Of a DNA stretch of 64,000 bases, positions 30,973 through 49,900 are shown piece after piece. Under the pieces are notes generated by a model. It had not been told where the DNA came from. It made no database searches and saw only the letters and a list, made by a program, of their open reading frames with translations. Position numbers and translations under genes: made by a program. This stretch comes from a virus: positions 17,877-81,876 of IMG/VR virus record IMGVR_UViG_3300031251_000970, one strand, 5' to 3'. The first letter of the stretch is position 1. The number at the start of each line of letters is the position of its first letter.

Positions 30973-31542
30973 TCATTGTCTACTGCGTCGAATTTTCGAA
31001 GCCGTATCTCCATGCTCTTTCGCCATCTTCTGATGATACTTGTGTTCCTTGCTTTCGGAATCGTGACTCTCCGATGCTCTTAAATGGGCATCCTGAGCCG
31101 ATTGATGATTAGCGAGAGATGGAGTTTGTTTTGCATTTTCCGACATCTTTTCCGCATGCGAACTCGCATGTTCCATTTGGTTCTTGGATGCGGCGGCATG
31201 ATGTGCGAGCGATGCGGAAAACAGTCGCCCGGCATTCGGATGATTGATGTCGCCAATTTTGGCAATGGCATCGGCGGCTCGCAAGTGGGCTTCGGCGGCT
31301 TCTTGATGCTTTCCGTTCTTGGCGTGGGAAGTTGCCGCAGATGATTCCTTCAAAGCATCCTTAGATTCTTTCATTCCGCCAATCAGTGACTGTGTTCGCT
31401 TGTGAGCATCTTCCGACGATTGAGCCGCAGAAGATGATCCGCTCGTCCATTTTCCATGATCGCGGGCTTCGCTCGGATTAAAAGACTTCAGAACCGTGAT
31501 TCCATCATCGATTACGGGATAAAGGAGAGACTTGAATGACAT
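30973..31542 (-). CDS. His/Ala-rich helical protein with GKWTS tag (putative internal head protein)
   Basis: LKSFNPSEARDHGKWTSG; repeated H..A..AHLRA. Confidence 0.7.
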   Translation of the reverse strand: MSFKSLLYPVIDDGITVLKSFNPSEARDHGKWTSGSSSAAQSSEDAHKRTQSLIGGMKESKDALKESSAATSHAKNGKHQEAAEAHLRAADAIAKIGDINHPNAGRLFSASLAHHAAASKNQMEHASSHAEKMSENAKQTPSLANHQSAQDAHLRASESHDSESKEHKYHQKMAKEHGDTASKIRRSRQ

Positions 31543-31543
31543 A

Positions 31544-31804
31544 TTAGACGCTCAATCCTTCTGCGGGCAACTCGGGACTTGAATCGGTTTTTTGAGGATC
31601 GATTTTTCCGGTATCGGTTTTTTCGTCGGAATTCGGCAACGATGGCGGATTTGCTGCATCGATCCATGAACGGGCATACGCGATTGCTTGGGTCGTTCCC
31701 AAGATCGGTCCGACCGTCATTTGCTCGCGAGTCGCCGTGTACGCGAACCCATCTGGCGATTCGCCGTTGAGAGTCGCGATCAGATGCACACCGTTGATAT
31801 CCAT
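31544..31804 (-). CDS. hypothetical protein
   Basis: 86 aa, GAGGGG RBS. Confidence 0.6.
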   Translation of the reverse strand: MDINGVHLIATLNGESPDGFAYTATREQMTVGPILGTTQAIAYARSWIDAANPPSLPNSDEKTDTGKIDPQKTDSSPELPAEGLSV

Positions 31805-31806
31805 CG

Positions 31807-32259
31807 CTATCCCCTCAGAAGTTCTACCGTCGCGTCTGCAACCTGATTTACGATCTTGTCGAGTGTTTCGTCGCTGATGCCAACCGGAGGCCGAGCGGGC
31901 ATCCTTGACGTTCCCTCTTGAAGATACCCAGCATAATCGATTCCGGTTCCGTACACGAGACCAGATCGAGTCGTCTCATGGACATTGCTCGGACCGCCGA
32001 CAGCCACGAGAGACTCTCGCAATGCTCCCGTTTCGACCAAAATCCGATCGTGCTTCTTTCGCCGAATCGTCGATTCTTTCAGCGGCTTCCAGTCGACGAG
32101 ATTCGAATCGTATTCGCCTGCGAACATTCCGGCATGCTGTTCGGCGAGCGATTGTTCGCCTTGTTCCATGACTTCGGTGTAATCGGCATTCTGGACAGCC
32201 GTTTCGATCGATTCGAAAAGCGAGTTCAGTTCGCCGATGTCGTCGACAACGAATGTCAC
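31807..32259 (-). CDS. virion morphogenesis protein (Mu gpG / P2 gpS-like)
   Basis: WKPLKEST...IL.ETGALR.SL...YA.YLQ.GT.RMPARP. Confidence 0.85.
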   Translation of the reverse strand: MTFVVDDIGELNSLFESIETAVQNADYTEVMEQGEQSLAEQHAGMFAGEYDSNLVDWKPLKESTIRRKKHDRILVETGALRESLVAVGGPSNVHETTRSGLVYGTGIDYAGYLQEGTSRMPARPPVGISDETLDKIVNQVADATVELLRG

Positions 32260-32699
32260 AATCTCGGCTCCTGAAAGTTCGCTCGCACCACAAATCCGCT
32301 GACGAATCCATCTCGGTCAAAATAGACTTTCGGCTCAACGACGTTTCCGGGCTCAACCTTCAATCGGTAACACATCGGCAACCCTGAGAGGGCGACGTTA
32401 TTCAATCGCCGTCGCATAGTCTGACGCCATCCAAGCCGTAATTCGAGGCTTTGAATATCCGGCATAGCCATGATCGCAACGAGCGTTCCGTAATAAACTC
32501 CGTCTCGATCATTCAATTCGTCGCCGACTTTTTCCGGTCCATACGGCGAGACCGAAATAAATGGCAGCGGAATCTGCTTATCCTGAAACGTCGCGACTTC
32601 CTGAAGCACGACTCCGCCCGTGATTCCAAACATTCCCATGCCGTCGATCAGAGCTTTGATCGCAACCATCGTATCGAAATGATTGGAGATTCCCGGCAT
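32256..32699 (-). CDS. tail terminator protein
   Basis: 147 aa, LPFISVSP motif, neck position. Confidence 0.6.
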   Translation of the reverse strand: MPGISNHFDTMVAIKALIDGMGMFGITGGVVLQEVATFQDKQIPLPFISVSPYGPEKVGDELNDRDGVYYGTLVAIMAMPDIQSLELRLGWRQTMRRRLNNVALSGLPMCYRLKVEPGNVVEPKVYFDRDGFVSGFVVRANFQEPRL

Positions 32700-32702
32700 T
32701 GA

Positions 32703-46647: not shown

Positions 46648-46665
46648 CACGGTTACTGTTTCGTG
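46648..46665 (-). repeat. 18-bp leader motif CACGAAACAGTAACCGTG, copy 2
   Basis: Exact match to 44135-44152. Confidence 0.8.
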
Positions 46666-46673
46666 CCGTTCAA

Positions 46674-46702
46674 ATCGTACTCCCGAGATATTCAAATAGC
46701 AA
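46674..46702 (-). promoter_or_regulatory. sigma70 promoter upstream of the rimI-like gene
   Basis: TTGCTA-17-TACGAT. Confidence 0.55.
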
Positions 46703-46719
46703 TCTATGTTCTGTAAGTT

Positions 46720-46905
46720 TCATTGCTTGTCCGCGAATTGAGGATTAGCTTTCGGATTCGCCGGTTTCTTCGGCGTCATTTCGGCATAGGTCGTATTCGT
46801 TGGATTTCCATCGTCGTCGGTCTCGATGATGATGACGCGGGATGCTTCATCCTTCGGGACTTCGTTTCCGTCAGCATCGGTGAAAAGCAGTTTAGGTTCT
46901 GGCAT
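46720..46905 (-). CDS. small acidic protein (F.DADGN.V.K..A..VII.E.D.DG)
   Basis: Start MPEPK after GGAG; overlaps the portal end, where an inhibitor partner of the peptidase domain might sit. Confidence 0.6.
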   Translation of the reverse strand: MPEPKLLFTDADGNEVPKDEASRVIIIETDDDGNPTNTTYAEMTPKKPANPKANPQFADKQ

Positions 46906-49900
46906 TTGGTAAATCGTGCTCCATGATGTTTGCGATCGCTGCATGCTTTAGCGGGAAGTTTTTAGCGAGTCCGCCTTCATTCTTCGCCAGTTTGTCGCGG
47001 TGGTATTTCGCGAATGCTTCCGCGAAGTCTTCCGCCGGATGAACTTTTCCGTATTCGGTCACCGGAGCTTCTTTCGACTGAGCTTTGTGATACTCGGTTC
47101 CCGGTCCCGGACTGATATTGTTCCAAATCTTTCGGGCGACAAGATGACCGATCTCGTGCAGCGTTGTTTCGATATCTGGAGTTCTGCCGCCGTAGAAAAT
47201 GATCTCGCCCGTCGAAATATTCGCCGATGCTTGAGCCTTGCATTCCGGGATTCCGTACCTCGCCGCGTAGAATGAATTCTGGCTGTTCTCCTGCTTTGAC
47301 AATCGAACTGAACTCGCATGCGGCAACAAGTCTTTAATTCTCGATGCCGATGCAAGGAACTCGGCCGCACCGCGAGAAAGTTCCGGATTGTATTGCAGTT
47401 TTATTCCACCGGCTTTGATTTCTTTCATTGCTTCCGGATTCGCTAATTGGGCATTCGGCTGGCCTTGAATGTCCTTACTCTTGCTCGCCAATTGTTTCTC
47501 GAAATGTTCAACTCTCGATTTCCACGCTGTCGGAGCGTCGATCAATGAGACTTCGTGCGATTCTCGACTCGGTTTGACCGATGTCTTTTCCGGAACCGCT
47601 GCTGTCGGAGTTTCCTTCGGCTTCTCAGCGATTGGATGACTTGGAGCGGACGAACCGCCGGACGTCCATTTTCCATCGGATGCCCTCGACTCCAATTCGA
47701 CTCCAGTCTTCACAACTGGCAAATTCTCATCTTTTTTTTCGATGGGATCACGATCGAGGATCGACATTCGCGACGGATAGACGTGTCCTTGTTCGCACTG
47801 ATCGTTTCCGCCGATTCGGCGTTCACGCATTGTGACCTCTGAACCGCAGAAGGGACATTTCCCATATGCATTCGCCGGTTCGTTTTTGACGGTGAATCCG
47901 CCATCGGCTCCAACCCCGTTCGACATTCCGAGAGATTTCCCGTTGCTTCCATTCGAATGACCATTTGCATGAGCCAATTGGCGTTCGACAACGGATTGGC
48001 GACGAATTAAATCCATCCGCTGAATCGCTTGAGATGAGTCGCCTTCTTCGATCCACTTTTTGAAATCGATCATTGTCATTGGAGTAATCGCCCCGAGTCC
48101 GTTCCAGCCTTTCGAATAGTTGCTCAAATAGGCTGATTCCGCATCGGCCGTCGAGAGAAATCCGATCATGCATTTGTGCTCGTCGAATTCTCCGGTCAAT
48201 GGATTCACTTGATCAATGATGAATACGATTTCCGATTCAGGATGCGGACCGATGAAAACATCGATGTGATCCCCATCCGCTCCGGATTGAGTTCCCTTGA
48301 GATATCCATAGTGATTTTGAAGCGTCGTCGACCACGGTTTTCCATTATGACCGATGCCGCTTCGGCTCGTTCCCTTCGCGGTTTCGATCGTGACTCGCAT
48401 TCCCTGAATCGTCACATGGCCCTTGCGATAGTTTCCCGATTCTTTCTGCGAATCGCTCGGAGTCGCGATCTTGCTTGCCGCATTCTCGATATTTCCGGAA
48501 AGAGACTTCAGTTTCGCCTCGACGATTTCATCGATCTTGCTCATCAGCAATTCTCGATCGGCGTCTTTCGCTCCCTCGATTGCCGCCATGAGCGTTTTCG
48601 ATTGTGATTCTTCCGATCGCTTGAACGGCGTTTCCGGTTCCATCGGATTCGGAGTGTCGACCGGCAATTCTGCTTCGGGAGGCTTTGGAAATCCATTCGA
48701 TTCGTCGCCGGGTTTGCTCGCATCGGCTCCCGGTTTGTCGGGACTTTTGGAAGCGGCAGAATAGAACTTTTGACCCTCAGTTCCCCCAATCGGCGGCATC
48801 TTGAATCGTGCCCGCAGTTCATCAACGCGAAACAGTTGATTCGATTGCAGCATCATCTGCCGATCCTTGGCTTCCATGTCCTCATCTTGGATTGATTCGG
48901 CTTCATACTCGATCGTTATCCCTTCTCCGAACTGTGGAGCGAGATGCGTCGTATCTGATTCGGCGAGTTTGTCGCACAGCGGCTGAATCGTCGTATGGTC
49001 CCATTGCTTCATCGCCACGATCCAAGCCGCATGACTCGAGGCCTCGTGGTATCCAACAGCGACCGGAGGAGTCGAATGCAGGGCGAGAACTGATCCCTTC
49101 GAATCCTGGAAGGCTTCCGCGTAGCACATGTCGATCGGATTTGAGCTTGTCGGAGTGATTTTCGTTCCGTTCGGAGCGAGCAAAACGCCCCCGGCATTGT
49201 TCGGCCCGGCGTGTTTCTTTTGAATCGCCGCTTGTGTGCGGTCCATGATGTCTTGGGTCGGATTCACATTCGGAGGAAGTTCCCATACGACCGTTTTGTT
49301 GATGCCGTTTTGAACGGATGCCGTTCGCGAACGATTGACCGCTTCTTCCCCGTCGATCCACAAATCTCCGGCTGCGATCGGGCTTTGATAATCGTCGAGC
49401 CAAAGCGGATGAGGGTAACCGATTTTCTGAATCTGCCGAGCGTCGACCACTCGCCCGAGAAGCTGCATCCAGCCCGGTGAACCACGGACATATCCTTCAT
49501 CTTCCATGATCGGAGCATAGCGTGAGCAATACGGCTGAATCAGGAATGATCCATAGGGCATATCCGGCGTCGGAGCCATCGGCGTGACCGCTGCCGTTGG
49601 GATCACATATCGCTGGCAGGTCGGCCCGAGCATGCTGGGGACATTCCAGACGAAAATGCAGCCCGTCAATCGCAATTGGATCGCCTGCCGATAGCGGAAG
49701 TCATAACCGCTTTCGTAGGGATTCGGCTTTTTCAGCAGAACCATCAGCGGATTGTCTTGCGGAAGATCGGTCGTCGCCTCATCTTCTTGACCATAGATCG
49801 ATTTGTAGGCCGACAGCGATCCGTATTGTCGTCGCAAACTCTTTCGACGAGATTGGTTGCTCGATTGATGCAGACCGTCAGAGAACGCCGTGACGTTCGC

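What the first reader, a model, noticed from the sequence alone, without database searches (positions are those of the whole stretch)
30973..47715. Shared K-(S/A)-F-N-x-S-E-x-R...GKWTS tag on three unrelated proteins: candidate capsid cargo-loading signal
Seen: LKSFNPSEARDHGKWTSGS near the N-terminus of the His/Ala protein (about 31437-31492); LKAFNVSEPRTEDGKWTSSG between the MuF and GNAT domains (about 44693-44752); and the more divergent VKTGVELESRASDGKWTSGG before the peptidase domain of the portal (about 47654-47713). All three share the DNA 13-mer ATGGAAAATGGAC. Each tag follows a Lys-small-residue site and precedes an effector-like domain. Established: the HK97 prohead protease cleaves Lys103-Ser104, and T4 internal proteins use a short cleavable capsid-targeting sequence. 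Inference: the protease frees tag-effector units (GNAT, metallopeptidase, His-rich protein) that are held in the head and injected with the DNA, making a modular protein-delivery system.
Basis: partly seen in the sequence, partly recalled or inferred. Interest (0 to 1): 0.85.

Follow-up and report, generated by a model that had tools for sequence, protein, structure and literature searches.

The report
Header tag on phage capsid cargo
Three unrelated head-region proteins of this uncultured prophage share a short peptide. It is a diverged local form of a widespread, apparently undescribed "header" that opens the enzyme modules phages attach to proteins of the capsid interior, and what reads it is unknown.

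Summary
Three minus-strand proteins carry the peptide at the stated places: a 189-aa His/Ala-rich orphan, MuF+GNAT, and portal+InPase+zincin.

It is not a recent duplication, because DNA identity is confined to the 13-mer. It is a diverged form of the motif [FY][DN]P[ST]QPRD[ED]xG[RK]W[TS] followed by a Gly-rich linker:
- 2,509 cluster representatives match at E<=1e-3, with up to 9 copies per protein.
- 99 of 102 pattern hits in viral contigs are genuine.

The motif always precedes a module (median spacing 227 aa) and is never C-terminal. It often sits at the protein's N-terminus. It occurs on portals of four Pfam families, on MuF, on a prohead protease, and on separate late genes. Orthologous MuFs have the site empty or filled with different tag+cargo cassettes.

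In this lineage the tag follows K-S/A-h. K-S-[LFMI] is the most over-represented tripeptide of its class in the phage's own scaffold and capsid propeptide (8 against 0.83 expected). This gives indirect support for cutting by the head protease.

Loading by the tag is untested. No Pfam or NCBIfam model, solved structure or paper that I could search describes the motif. Verdict: a real feature, a new variant within the known polyvalent-protein theme, with only part of the mechanism supported.

The parts
30973..31542 (-). 189-aa His/Ala-rich orphan protein (P0001). It lies between the tail-completion and tail-tube genes and is a stand-alone tagged cargo candidate.
   Evidence: Translation. No Pfam, PHROG or NCBIfam hit. 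No homologue other than itself. The Atlas model is helical, pTM 0.68.
31435..31491 (-). Header tag 1 (LKSFNPSEARDHGKWTSGS, residues 18-36). K19-S20-F21 lies directly in front of it, and a second K-S-L is at residues 4-6.
44197..45549 (-). MuF-like head protein carrying an inserted tag+GNAT cassette (P0002). The start is taken at the ATG of MAELPN, as in all 13 orthologues.
   Evidence: GNAT at 316-412. Orthologues carry PF04233.
44692..44751 (-). Header tag 2 (LKAFNVSEPRTEDGKWTSSG, residues 299-318), preceded by S-K-S-L-K-A-F.
44332..44349 (-). Distal boundary of the GNAT cassette (KSIKSF, residues 433-438). After it the MuF C-terminal segment resumes (KAWYR..AEWRAYC).
   Evidence: Compared with P0005, P0181 and P0182 and with the K-S-h sites.
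46892..50143 (-). Polyvalent portal protein (P0003). Order of parts: portal domain (48806-49774), InPase (48047-48451), Cys/His ribbon (residues 763-787), header tag, probable zincin with HEIGH at 47144-47158.
47654..47713 (-). Header tag 3 (VKTGVELESRASDGKWTSGG, residues 811-830). It is the most diverged copy, with no [FY][DN]P and no K-S-h in front.
38347..39783 (-). Prohead protease fused to a scaffold-like acidic C-terminal half (P0022). It has five K-S-[LFM] sites, at residues 211, 385, 406, 420 and 444.
   Evidence: PHROG 80 head maturation protease, E 7.2e-8 at residues 64-175. Translation. Motif counts.
36946..38319 (-). HK97-fold major capsid protein (P0021). It has three K-S-[LI] sites, all within the first 113 residues, upstream of the Pfam capsid domain (157-430).
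   Evidence: PF05065 8.4e-31..
46120..46695 (-). Untagged stand-alone GNAT gene between the portal and MuF genes. It is context only, not shown to be cargo.
   Evidence: PF00583 3.5e-11.
51145..52632 (-). Large terminase, which marks the start of the head module.
   Evidence: PF03237/PF17289. PHROG 38, 1.5e-97.

Best explanation
The three peptides are diverged local copies of a widespread header that opens each cargo (effector) module of phage-type polyvalent head proteins. The unit has four parts in order: a short helix, then [FY][DN]P[ST]QPRD[ED]xG[RK]W[TS] folded as a tight R...W beta-turn knob, then a Gly/Ser-rich tether, then the cargo domain. Modules are fused to proteins of the procapsid interior (portal, MuF, prohead protease) or are encoded as separate late genes.

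Shown: the motif, its polarity (always in front of a module), its carriers, and the gain, loss and swapping of cassettes at orthologous sites.

Inferred, with statistical support in this lineage only: the head protease cuts at K|S-h just before tags 1 and 2 and around the GNAT and InPase modules. This would free tag+cargo units inside the prohead.

Inferred without a test: the knob is a recognition handle needed by each module on its own, for loading or retention in the head or for exit with the DNA. The partner that reads it is unknown.
For: 1. The family is real.
- The pattern P[ST]QPRDxxG[KRQ]W gives 102 unique in-frame hits in viral contigs. 99 of them have F/Y/W at the unconstrained -2 position, and -1 is D/N/S.
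- A profile of 118 tags finds 2,509 representatives at E<=1e-3, 425 at <=1e-10, and up to 9 stretches per protein.

2. The polarity is consistent. The figures come from the 148 top representatives.
- There are 2-8 tags per protein.
- The 419 inter-tag gaps have a median of 227 aa (interquartile range 165-306).
- The first tag starts within 60 aa of the N-terminus in 86 of 148.
- At least 117 aa follow the last tag at the 5th percentile.
- N-terminal tags score no lower than internal ones (28.2 against 25.6 bits, p 0.063).
- In the complete phage G012, five consecutive separate genes after TerL each carry one tag.

3. The carriers are proteins of the head interior.
- Portal domains of 4 Pfam families occur on 11 of 56 viral tag ORFs and on 11 of 34 genomic tag ORFs.
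- MuF occurs on 6 of 56 viral tag ORFs and on 11 of 60 representatives.
- Peptidase_S78 occurs on 1 of 34 genomic tag ORFs.
- No replication or housekeeping carrier was seen.

4. Cassettes are gained, lost and swapped.
- Of 13 MuF orthologues, 8 stop after the CRC motif and 1 (P0181) has an empty site.
- 3 orthologues (P0178, P0179, P0182) and the window's MuF each carry the tag plus a different domain.
- P0005 shares a tag+domain cassette with the L004 portal.

5. AF2 of the tag alone gives a helix at 3-13 and a beta bridge R21-W27. pLDDT is 83 over residues 21-30 and 55 in the Gly tail.

6. Link to the window.
- The orthologous portal in L004 and the MuF orthologues carry canonical tags.
- An HMM built only from external tags ranks the window's three tags 1-3 among 924 six-frame segments.

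7. The cut site.
- Among all 400 a-b-[LFMI] patterns in scaffold-protease plus MCP residues 1-150, KS[LFMI] is the top outlier. It occurs 8 times against 0.83 expected (Poisson 2.8e-6), and the next best pattern has p 0.006.
- 0 of 20,000 composition-preserving shuffles reach 8.
- The sites are conserved in L004.
- HK97 gp5 reads K103-S104-L105 at its known maturation site. The residues were checked. The cleavage itself is recalled from the literature.
Against: - The window's tags break near-invariant features of the family. Tag 1 has one residue, not two, between D and G. Tags 2 and 3 lack the D that 99% of 567 tags have.
- The external-only HMM scores for the window's tags are weak: 11.0, 9.3 and 7.2 bits, with E 0.0098-0.15 in a database of 924 segments.
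- Tag 3 has no K-S-h and no [FY][DN]P.
- In three other tag-rich genomes the residues before the tags are lineage-specific (K[ADE][FY], LAG[FY], N-A-Y-N) and were not enriched in any untagged ORF. The protease-site reading is therefore not replicated outside this lineage, and there the upstream conservation may simply be paralogy.
- Cargo fused to portal or MuF needs no loading signal, which weakens the loading version of the handle idea.
- The header is not universal. It is absent from 27 other InPase-bearing polyvalent loci (356,563 bases) and from the MuF-ART fusion of Microbacterium phage Cicada.
- No cultured phage with the tag was found, so no proteomic data bear on it.
- No partner is known.
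Confidence: 0.55

Rival explanations
1. The tag is a processing signal only. It is the docking or recognition element for a protease, which could be the zincin metallopeptidase common in polyvalent proteins or the prohead protease. Its sole role is to have the polyprotein cut into modules, and it has no role in loading or exit.
For: - Iyer et al. propose that zincin metallopeptidases process polyvalent proteins (PMC5512222, passages).
- HExxH occurs 95 times in 59 of 148 multi-tag representatives, against 7.9 expected. Some proteins are tandem tag+HExxH modules with the HExxH 85-100 aa before the next tag.
- The window's tag 3 heads a HEIGH domain.
- K-S-h sites flank the modules.
- One tag follows a Peptidase_S78 domain.
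Against: - Tags are as well conserved at protein N-termini as internally.
- Tags persist on separately encoded single-module genes, where nothing needs to be separated.
- 89 of 148 multi-tag proteins have no HExxH.
- The phage's main protease substrates, scaffold and MCP, carry K-S-h but no tag.
- AF2 models the core as a folded turn, not an extended cleavage site.
Confidence: 0.2
2. The tag is an evolutionary junction or structural insulator. It is a conserved boundary peptide plus flexible linker that lets cassettes recombine and fold independently, like the demarcation motifs of polymorphic toxins. It has no binding partner.
For: - Orthologous MuFs have empty or filled sites, and the window's GNAT cassette is bracketed by KSLKAF ... 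KSIKSF.
- Portals P0017-P0019 end in a half tag, KSFDPSQPR.
- The same tag+domain cassette occurs on a portal (L004) and on a MuF (P0005).
Against: - Conservation is at the protein level across many phyla with different G+C content.
- In the window, DNA identity is only 13 nt, which is too short for homologous exchange.
- Near-invariance of R, D, G, [RK] and W over 567 copies exceeds what a linker needs.
- The strict polarity, never C-terminal, is not required of a mere joint.
Confidence: 0.12
3. The tag associates with other copies of itself. Tags bind one another, possibly through the preceding helix, so that tags anchored on portal and MuF nucleate a bolus of free tagged cargo near the portal.
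For: - This would explain strong conservation across phages whose portal and capsid families differ.
- It would explain the presence of tags on both anchored and free proteins.
- It would explain multivalency of up to 9 tags per protein.
- A subfamily also conserves the upstream helix, W..A[KR]..A..LL.
Against: - There is no direct test.
- The core is net acidic.
- Some genomes have a single tag: 8 of 19 records.
Confidence: 0.08
4. The three peptides are a chance resemblance or a recent intragenomic copy with no function.
For: The three window copies are short and differ from the family consensus at near-invariant positions.
Against: - 0 of 100 shuffles give three copies of the 13-mer.
- There is no DNA similarity outside the 13-mer.
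- Orthologues carry the tag at the same places.
- The external HMM ranks the three copies 1-3 of 924.
Confidence: 0.02

Closest known systems
Phage-type polyvalent proteins and effectors fused to portal or MuF (Iyer, Burroughs, Anand, de Souza, Aravind 2017, PMC5512222; passages read, not the whole text or the ftp supplements)
   Same: - The architecture is the same: portal+InPase+zincin and MuF+GNAT.
- The domain vocabulary is the same: ART, GNAT, Zeta, NUDIX, 2H/Acb1, PBECR, zincin.
- The genes lie among the head genes.
- The proposed packaging, delivery and processing by metallopeptidases are the same.
   Different: - The passages I read (terms cleav, autoproteol, linker, processing, motif, MuF, portal) do not mention a conserved header peptide in front of modules.
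- No Pfam LPD or other model covers it.
- The supplementary alignments, which I could not see, might show it.
MuF polymorphic toxins of temperate phages (Jamet et al. 2017, PMC5576092; term search only)
   Same: An N-terminal MuF domain carries variable C-terminal effector domains.
   Different: - The paper has 0 occurrences of motif, cleav, linker, junction or boundary.
- Here the junction peptide is the finding. It also heads modules on portals and proteases, modules N-terminal to MuF, and free proteins.
Capsid targeting sequence of the T4 internal proteins, removed by the prohead protease (recalled; search listing only)
   Same: A short peptide at the start of head-carried, injected proteins, next to a prohead-protease site.
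   Different: - T4's is about 10 residues, strictly N-terminal, specific to its lineage and removed.
- This header is about 20-35 residues and is repeated internally.
- It is conserved across phyla.
- By position it would stay on the cargo if cutting is at K|S-h.
HK97 prohead protease maturation site K103|S104 of gp5 (cleavage recalled; residues K103-S104-L105 checked)
   Same: The K-S-h tripeptide recurs in this phage's scaffold and capsid propeptide and in front of the cargo modules.
   Different: - The window's protease is recognised only by a PHROG (E 7.2e-8). BLASTP against HK97 gp4 gives E 0.4.
- HK97 has no cargo modules.
Encapsulin cargo-loading peptides (recalled, not read here)
   Same: A short anchoring peptide, a flexible linker and a cargo enzyme, inside a shell with the HK97 fold.
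   Different: - The sequence is different.
- The position is usually C-terminal.
- Binding to the shell is established there and untested here.
Demarcation motifs of polymorphic toxins, such as VENN in CdiA (recalled)
   Same: A conserved short motif marks the start of swappable downstream domains.
   Different: - Those stand once, before a single C-terminal toxin on a secreted protein.
- This motif is repeated before every module on virion proteins and at N-termini.

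Membership tests
Phage-type polyvalent proteins (Iyer et al. 2017) | Two or more effector or enzymatic domains in one polypeptide together with a virion domain | tested here: met
   P0003 has portal PF04860 8.8e-27, InPase PF18823 5.3e-54 and a HEIGH domain. P0002 has MuF-like and GNAT domains.
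Phage-type polyvalent proteins (Iyer et al. 2017) | Zincin-like metallopeptidase module | tested here: inconclusive
   ATLF scores 25.6 bits, below the cut-off of 27.4. Peptidase_Mx has E 0.0027. HEIGH is at residues 996-1000. No fold test was run.
Phage-type polyvalent proteins (Iyer et al. 2017) | Encoded among the portal-terminase head genes | tested here: met
   TerL, portal, MuF, protease-scaffold and MCP lie in order on the minus strand.
Phage-type polyvalent proteins (Iyer et al. 2017) | Packaged in the virion and delivered to the host | not testable with these tools
   The phage is an uncultured provirus record.
Header-tag family as defined here | Core R-D-x-x-G-[RKQ]-W-[TS]. In 567 tags R is 100%, D is 99%, and the D..G spacing is 2 in 565. 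| tested here: inconclusive
   All three window tags keep R, G, K, W, T and S. Tag 1 has a spacing of 1. Tags 2 and 3 have T or A in place of D. The external-only HMM ranks them 1-3 of 924 but at only 7-11 bits.
Header-tag family as defined here | Stands in front of a module and is followed by a Gly/Ser-rich tether | tested here: met
   The tethers read SGSSS, SSGSG and SGGSS. They are followed by the His/Ala domain, GNAT and the zincin.
Header-tag family as defined here | Orthologues carry the canonical tag at the same junction | tested here: met
   The L004 portal has FDPSQPRDDDGKWT and FNPSQPRDDDGRWT. The MuF orthologues P0005, P0178, P0179 and P0182 also carry it.
T4-type capsid targeting sequence | Strictly N-terminal short peptide | tested here: not met
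   Only tag 1 is near an N-terminus (residues 18-36). Tags 2 and 3 are internal, at 299-318 and 811-830.
T4-type capsid targeting sequence | Necessary and sufficient for encapsidation, and removed by the prohead protease | not testable with these tools
   This needs virions and reporter fusions.
HK97-type prohead-protease substrate sites | A prohead protease gene next to the capsid gene | tested here: inconclusive
   PHROG 80 E 7.2e-8 and PHROG 11321 E 7.1e-10. No Pfam hit. BLASTP against HK97 gp4 gives E 0.4.
HK97-type prohead-protease substrate sites | A site motif recurring in the scaffold and the capsid propeptide | tested here: met
   KS[LFMI] occurs 8 times against 0.83 expected and is the top of 400 patterns. 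0 of 20,000 shuffles reach this. The positions are conserved in L004.
HK97-type prohead-protease substrate sites | The same motif at the cargo junctions | tested here: met
   It lies before tags 1 and 2, after GNAT, and before and after InPase. It does not lie before tag 3, which has K-T-G.
HK97-type prohead-protease substrate sites | Cleavage observed | not testable with these tools
   No proteomic data exist for this or any tagged phage.
Encapsulin-type cargo-loading peptide | The peptide binds the inner face of the HK97-fold shell | not tested

The most novel reading that the evidence does not exclude
The header is a portable, near-universal address tag of tailed phages. A conserved component of the head, or the tags themselves, would read the R...W knob, so that any protein bearing it is taken into the capsid and leaves with the DNA. 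If so, the injected proteome of uncultured phages could be read from sequence, and the tag could load foreign proteins into phage heads.
Probability: 0.3. Interest if true: 0.85.

Novelty: new variant of a known kind. Interest (0 to 1): 0.62.

Why it matters
Proteins injected by phages (anti-defence enzymes, ADP-ribosyltransferases, Acb1-like nucleases, toxins) act before any phage gene is expressed. They are hard to recognise in genomes.

A conserved header that marks each such module would give a sequence handle for finding them. Half of the 60 multi-tag proteins scanned have no Pfam domain at all, so the header could uncover new effector families.

It would also give a concrete, mutable element with which to ask how cargo is loaded, cut free and expelled. 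For this window it shows that an orphan His/Ala-rich protein probably belongs to the same cargo set as the portal- and MuF-borne enzymes.

Tried and rejected
1. Complex prediction of the MuF core (A4, residues 1-255) with the header (A3) gave no verdict. It says nothing either way.

2. MuF co-occurrence was uninformative. PF04233 was found in 7 of 19 tag-bearing records, but it also misses the window's own MuF. Two handles were not held.

3. tblastn of a 26-aa tag and of the five-tag protein P0004 against 50,697 phage records gave no tag hits, only ART-domain hits. BLAST's low-complexity filter may hide short tags.

4. A profile search of solved structures gave nothing better than E 1.6.

5. 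The tag-like stretch in the MCP N-terminus (HRDAQGRIV, conserved in L004 as HRDEDGRIT) was not picked up by the external HMM. I dropped it as evidence.

6. Self-cleavage at [DN]|P, by analogy with Asp-Pro and Asn-Pro autoproteolysis (recalled), was rejected as the core function. About 30% of 567 tags lack [FY][DN]P while R-D..G-[RK]-W is invariant. Window tags 2 and 3 also lack it.

7. The idea that the upstream residues are a scaffold-enriched protease site was tested in G001, G005 and G013. No enrichment was found outside the tagged ORFs.

8. My first regex scan of the InPase loci was too narrow, since it missed L004's own tags. I redid it with the HMM and found 0 of 27 loci.

9. The homologue search for P0001 found only P0001 itself. 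The Atlas gave no usable relative.

10. Literature. Seven searches, including the peptide words QPRD, GGQW, PRVPAG, GKWTS, NPNQPR, PSQPR, GRWT, GKWT, QPRDE, QPRDD and DPSQP, found no description of the motif. Subscription journals and supplements were not searched.

Full report
THE OBSERVATION

The 13-mer ATGGAAAATGGAC occurs three times, all on the minus strand, at 31445, 44702 and 47664. Shuffles give a mean of 0.19, and none of 100 reaches three.
- LKSFNPSEARDHGKWTSGS is residues 18-36 of a 189-aa His/Ala-rich ORF.
- LKAFNVSEPRTEDGKWTSSG is residues 299-318 of a MuF-like+GNAT ORF.
- VKTGVELESRASDGKWTSGG is residues 811-830 of a 1083-aa portal ORF.

An alignment of the three DNA stretches shows identity only in the 13-mer. 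The peptide is therefore kept by selection on the protein, with the same codon choice. It is not a recent copy.

THE SETTING

The window is part of an 81.9-kb IMG/VR provirus record. On the minus strand lies a head-to-tail module, in this order:
- TerL.
- A polyvalent portal made of Phage_portal, InPase at 5.3e-54, a Cys/His ribbon, the tag, and a HEIGH domain with sub-threshold zincin hits.
- A free GNAT.
- MuF-like+tag+GNAT.
- Small ORFs.
- A prohead protease fused to an acidic scaffold-like half.
- An HK97-fold MCP.
- Adaptor and neck genes, interrupted by two HNH genes.
- The tagged orphan.
- The tail tube.

Fusions of InPase, GNAT and zincins to portal and MuF are the published polyvalent-protein theme (PMC5512222, passages).

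RELATIVES SHOW WHAT THE PEPTIDE IS

The only close portal relative in IMG/VR is L004, at 48% identity. It carries two canonical copies, LKAFDPSQPRDDDGKWTDG and KKSFNPSQPRDDDGRWTGS. Each stands before a different domain, the first a weak ART-PolyVal hit. L004's MuF has none.

A profile of five tags, searched among longer proteins, found 19 hits. They have 1-5 tags each, in front of ART, GNAT, Acb1, PemK, HNH and zincin-like domains.

A degenerate DNA pattern for P[ST]QPRDxxG[KRQ]W gave different results in the two collections:
- In viral contigs it hit 118 stretches, which reduce to 102 unique in-frame instances. 99 of them have F/Y/W two residues upstream, a position the pattern does not constrain.
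- In one-genome-per-species contigs only 38 of 78 pass that check. The rest are short GC-rich frames, which I take as chance.
- The true genomic hits come from many phyla, among them Bradyrhizobium, Afipia, Sphingomonas, Gemmata, Flavonifractor and Clostridia MAGs.

A profile of 118 tags read against 1.84 billion representatives finds 2,509 at E<=1e-3, 425 at <=1e-10 and 24 at <=1e-30, with up to 9 stretches per protein.

Over 567 tags, conservation is as follows:
- R is 100%, D is 99%, G is 100%, [RKQ] is 99%, W is 96% and T/S is 87%.
- The D..G spacing is 2 in 565 of 567.
- [FY][DNS]P is present in about 70%.
- A Gly-rich run follows the motif.

No Pfam-A or NCBIfam model covers the tag in any protein scanned. 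No solved structure contains it.

POLARITY AND CARRIERS

In the 148 top representatives (two of the 150 listed were already in hand and were left out) the pattern is consistent:
- There are 2-8 tags per protein.
- The 419 gaps between tags have a median of 227 aa, the size of one domain.
- The first tag starts within 60 residues of the N-terminus in 86 of 148.
- A tag is never terminal. At least 117 aa follow the last tag at the 5th percentile, with a median of 273.

N-terminal tags are at least as well conserved as internal ones. In the complete phage G012, five consecutive separate genes just after TerL each carry one tag 60-140 residues from the start, and the last of them heads a Zeta-toxin domain. 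So each module keeps its own header even when nothing needs to be cut apart.

Carriers on the same reading frame are all proteins of the procapsid interior:
- Portals of four Pfam families occur on 11 of 56 viral ORFs and 11 of 34 genomic ORFs.
- MuF occurs on 6 of 56 viral ORFs and 11 of 60 representatives.
- A Peptidase_S78 domain occurs on 1 of 34 genomic ORFs.

ART-type domains are the commonest cargo (20 of 60). 30 of 60 proteins have no Pfam domain at all.

CASSETTES

Thirteen MuF orthologues were aligned with the window's MuF. Four of them carry PF04233, and one is from Schlesneria.
- Eight end just after the GPPxxHPRCRC motif.
- P0181 has an empty site (DYKSLNSVS ... SFILLWCQENGIE).
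- P0182 fills the same site with DYKSLKAFDPGEKRDEGGKWT plus a domain.
- P0178 and P0179 carry other tag+domain units.
- The window's MuF carries tag+GNAT between DSKSLKAF and KKSIKSFDLKAWYR.

P0005 is a MuF with two tags. It shares its first cassette with the second cassette of the L004 portal. Portals P0017-P0019 end in a half tag.

SHAPE

AlphaFold2 on the 35-aa tag alignment gives a helix at 3-13 and a beta bridge between R21 and W27. pLDDT is 83 over residues 21-30 and 55 in the Gly tail. That is a small knob on a flexible tether.

THE LYS SITE

In the window, KS[LFMI] occurs 30 times in 17,042 residues of 56 ORFs. Seventeen of the 30 lie in five head proteins:
- Five are in the protease-scaffold.
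- Three are in the MCP, all in its first 113 residues.
- Two are in P0001.
- Three are in P0002.
- Four are in P0003.

Statistical checks:
- Leaving out the three tagged proteins, scaffold plus MCP hold 8 of 21 sites in 6.1% of the residues (p 1.9e-5).
- Shuffles that keep each protein's composition give 0 of 20,000 reaching 8.
- An unbiased scan of all 400 a-b-[LFMI] patterns in scaffold plus MCP residues 1-150 puts KS[LFMI] first. It occurs 8 times against 0.83 expected (2.8e-6), and the next best pattern has p 0.006.

The positions recur in L004. In the tagged proteins the sites fall as follows:
- Directly before tags 1 and 2.
- After the GNAT module.
- Before and after the InPase module.

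HK97 gp5 reads K103-S104-L105 at its maturation site. The residues were checked, and the cleavage is recalled from the literature.

LIMITS

- Tag 3 lacks K-S-h.
- In G001, G005 and G013 the residues before the tags are conserved within each lineage but are not enriched in other ORFs. There they may reflect tandem duplication.
- The window's tags depart from the family's near-invariant D or its spacing, and they score weakly with a profile built only from external tags. They still rank 1-3 of 924.
- The header is absent from 27 other InPase-bearing polyvalent loci and from a cultured MuF-ART fusion.
- HExxH is twelve-fold enriched in multi-tag proteins (95 against 7.9 expected, in 59 of 148). 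A zincin-processing role therefore remains a live rival.

WHAT IS KNOWN AND WHAT IS NEW

The system is the known polyvalent-protein kind. I did not find the header itself in Pfam, NCBIfam, the PDB or seven literature searches. I could not see the supplements of PMC5512222 or subscription journals.

Earlier notes of this scan on other genomes describe the same kind of header. They are leads, not independent evidence. One of them prompted the scaffold test that I ran here.

VERDICT

Cutting at Lys sites is plausible for this lineage. The loading function is open.

Noticed in passing
window 38140-38190 (MCP residues about 44-60) and L004 7161-8144: The MCP N-terminal region has GVHRDAQGRIVGEW (GVHRDEDGRITAGW in L004). 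This resembles the tag core R-D-x-x-G-[RK]-h-T. The external tag HMM does not pick it up.
   Followed up: partly
window 29085-29942 and 33983-34864 (minus strand): Two HNH endonuclease genes sit inside the structural module. One lies between the tail tube and the downstream tail genes. The other lies between the head-tail adaptor gene and the MCP-proximal ORFs.
   Followed up: no
window 47930-48508 (P0003 residues 546-738): The InPase module of the portal has no header, but it is bracketed by two K-S-L sites (AKLKSLSG and NGKSLGMS). At the place where L004 has its first header, the window reads LKSLSGNIEN.
   Followed up: partly
window 22692-22706 (minus strand, ORF 21714-23636, residue about 311): KAFRIYDPQPYGKFTTQGS in a 640-aa tail-region protein looks tag-like. 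It lacks R-D and scores 1.1 bits with the tag HMM, so it is probably chance.
   Followed up: partly
P0017, P0018, P0019: Portals of 549-570 aa related to L004 end shortly after a half header (LKSFDPSQPRSGDENS...). They look as if a cassette had been deleted within the tag.
   Followed up: no
P0028, P0023, P0042, P0085: These are tandem arrays of up to six tag+HExxH modules. The HExxH lies 82-101 residues before the next tag. Why a phage would carry so many zincin copies is unexplained.
   Followed up: no
L232 6010-14136 (G012): Five consecutive tagged genes lie right after TerL in a complete 77-kb phage. A subfamily also conserves the helix before the tag (W..A[KR]..A..LL[RK].[FY]D).
   Followed up: partly
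L214 1858-2352 (Methylovirgula MAG): A header follows the end of a Peptidase_S78 prohead-protease domain, so the protease itself can be a carrier.
   Followed up: no
window 39862-40080 (minus strand): A 72-aa Cys-rich ORF between the protease-scaffold gene and the small ORFs upstream of it. It has a sub-threshold hit to a eukaryotic Cys-rich region (PF21533, E 6.5e-5).
   Followed up: no
window 17307-19163 (minus strand): A 618-aa protein with a glycosyltransferase family 25 domain (3.3e-32) lies downstream of the tail genes. It may be a host-surface-modifying moron.
   Followed up: no
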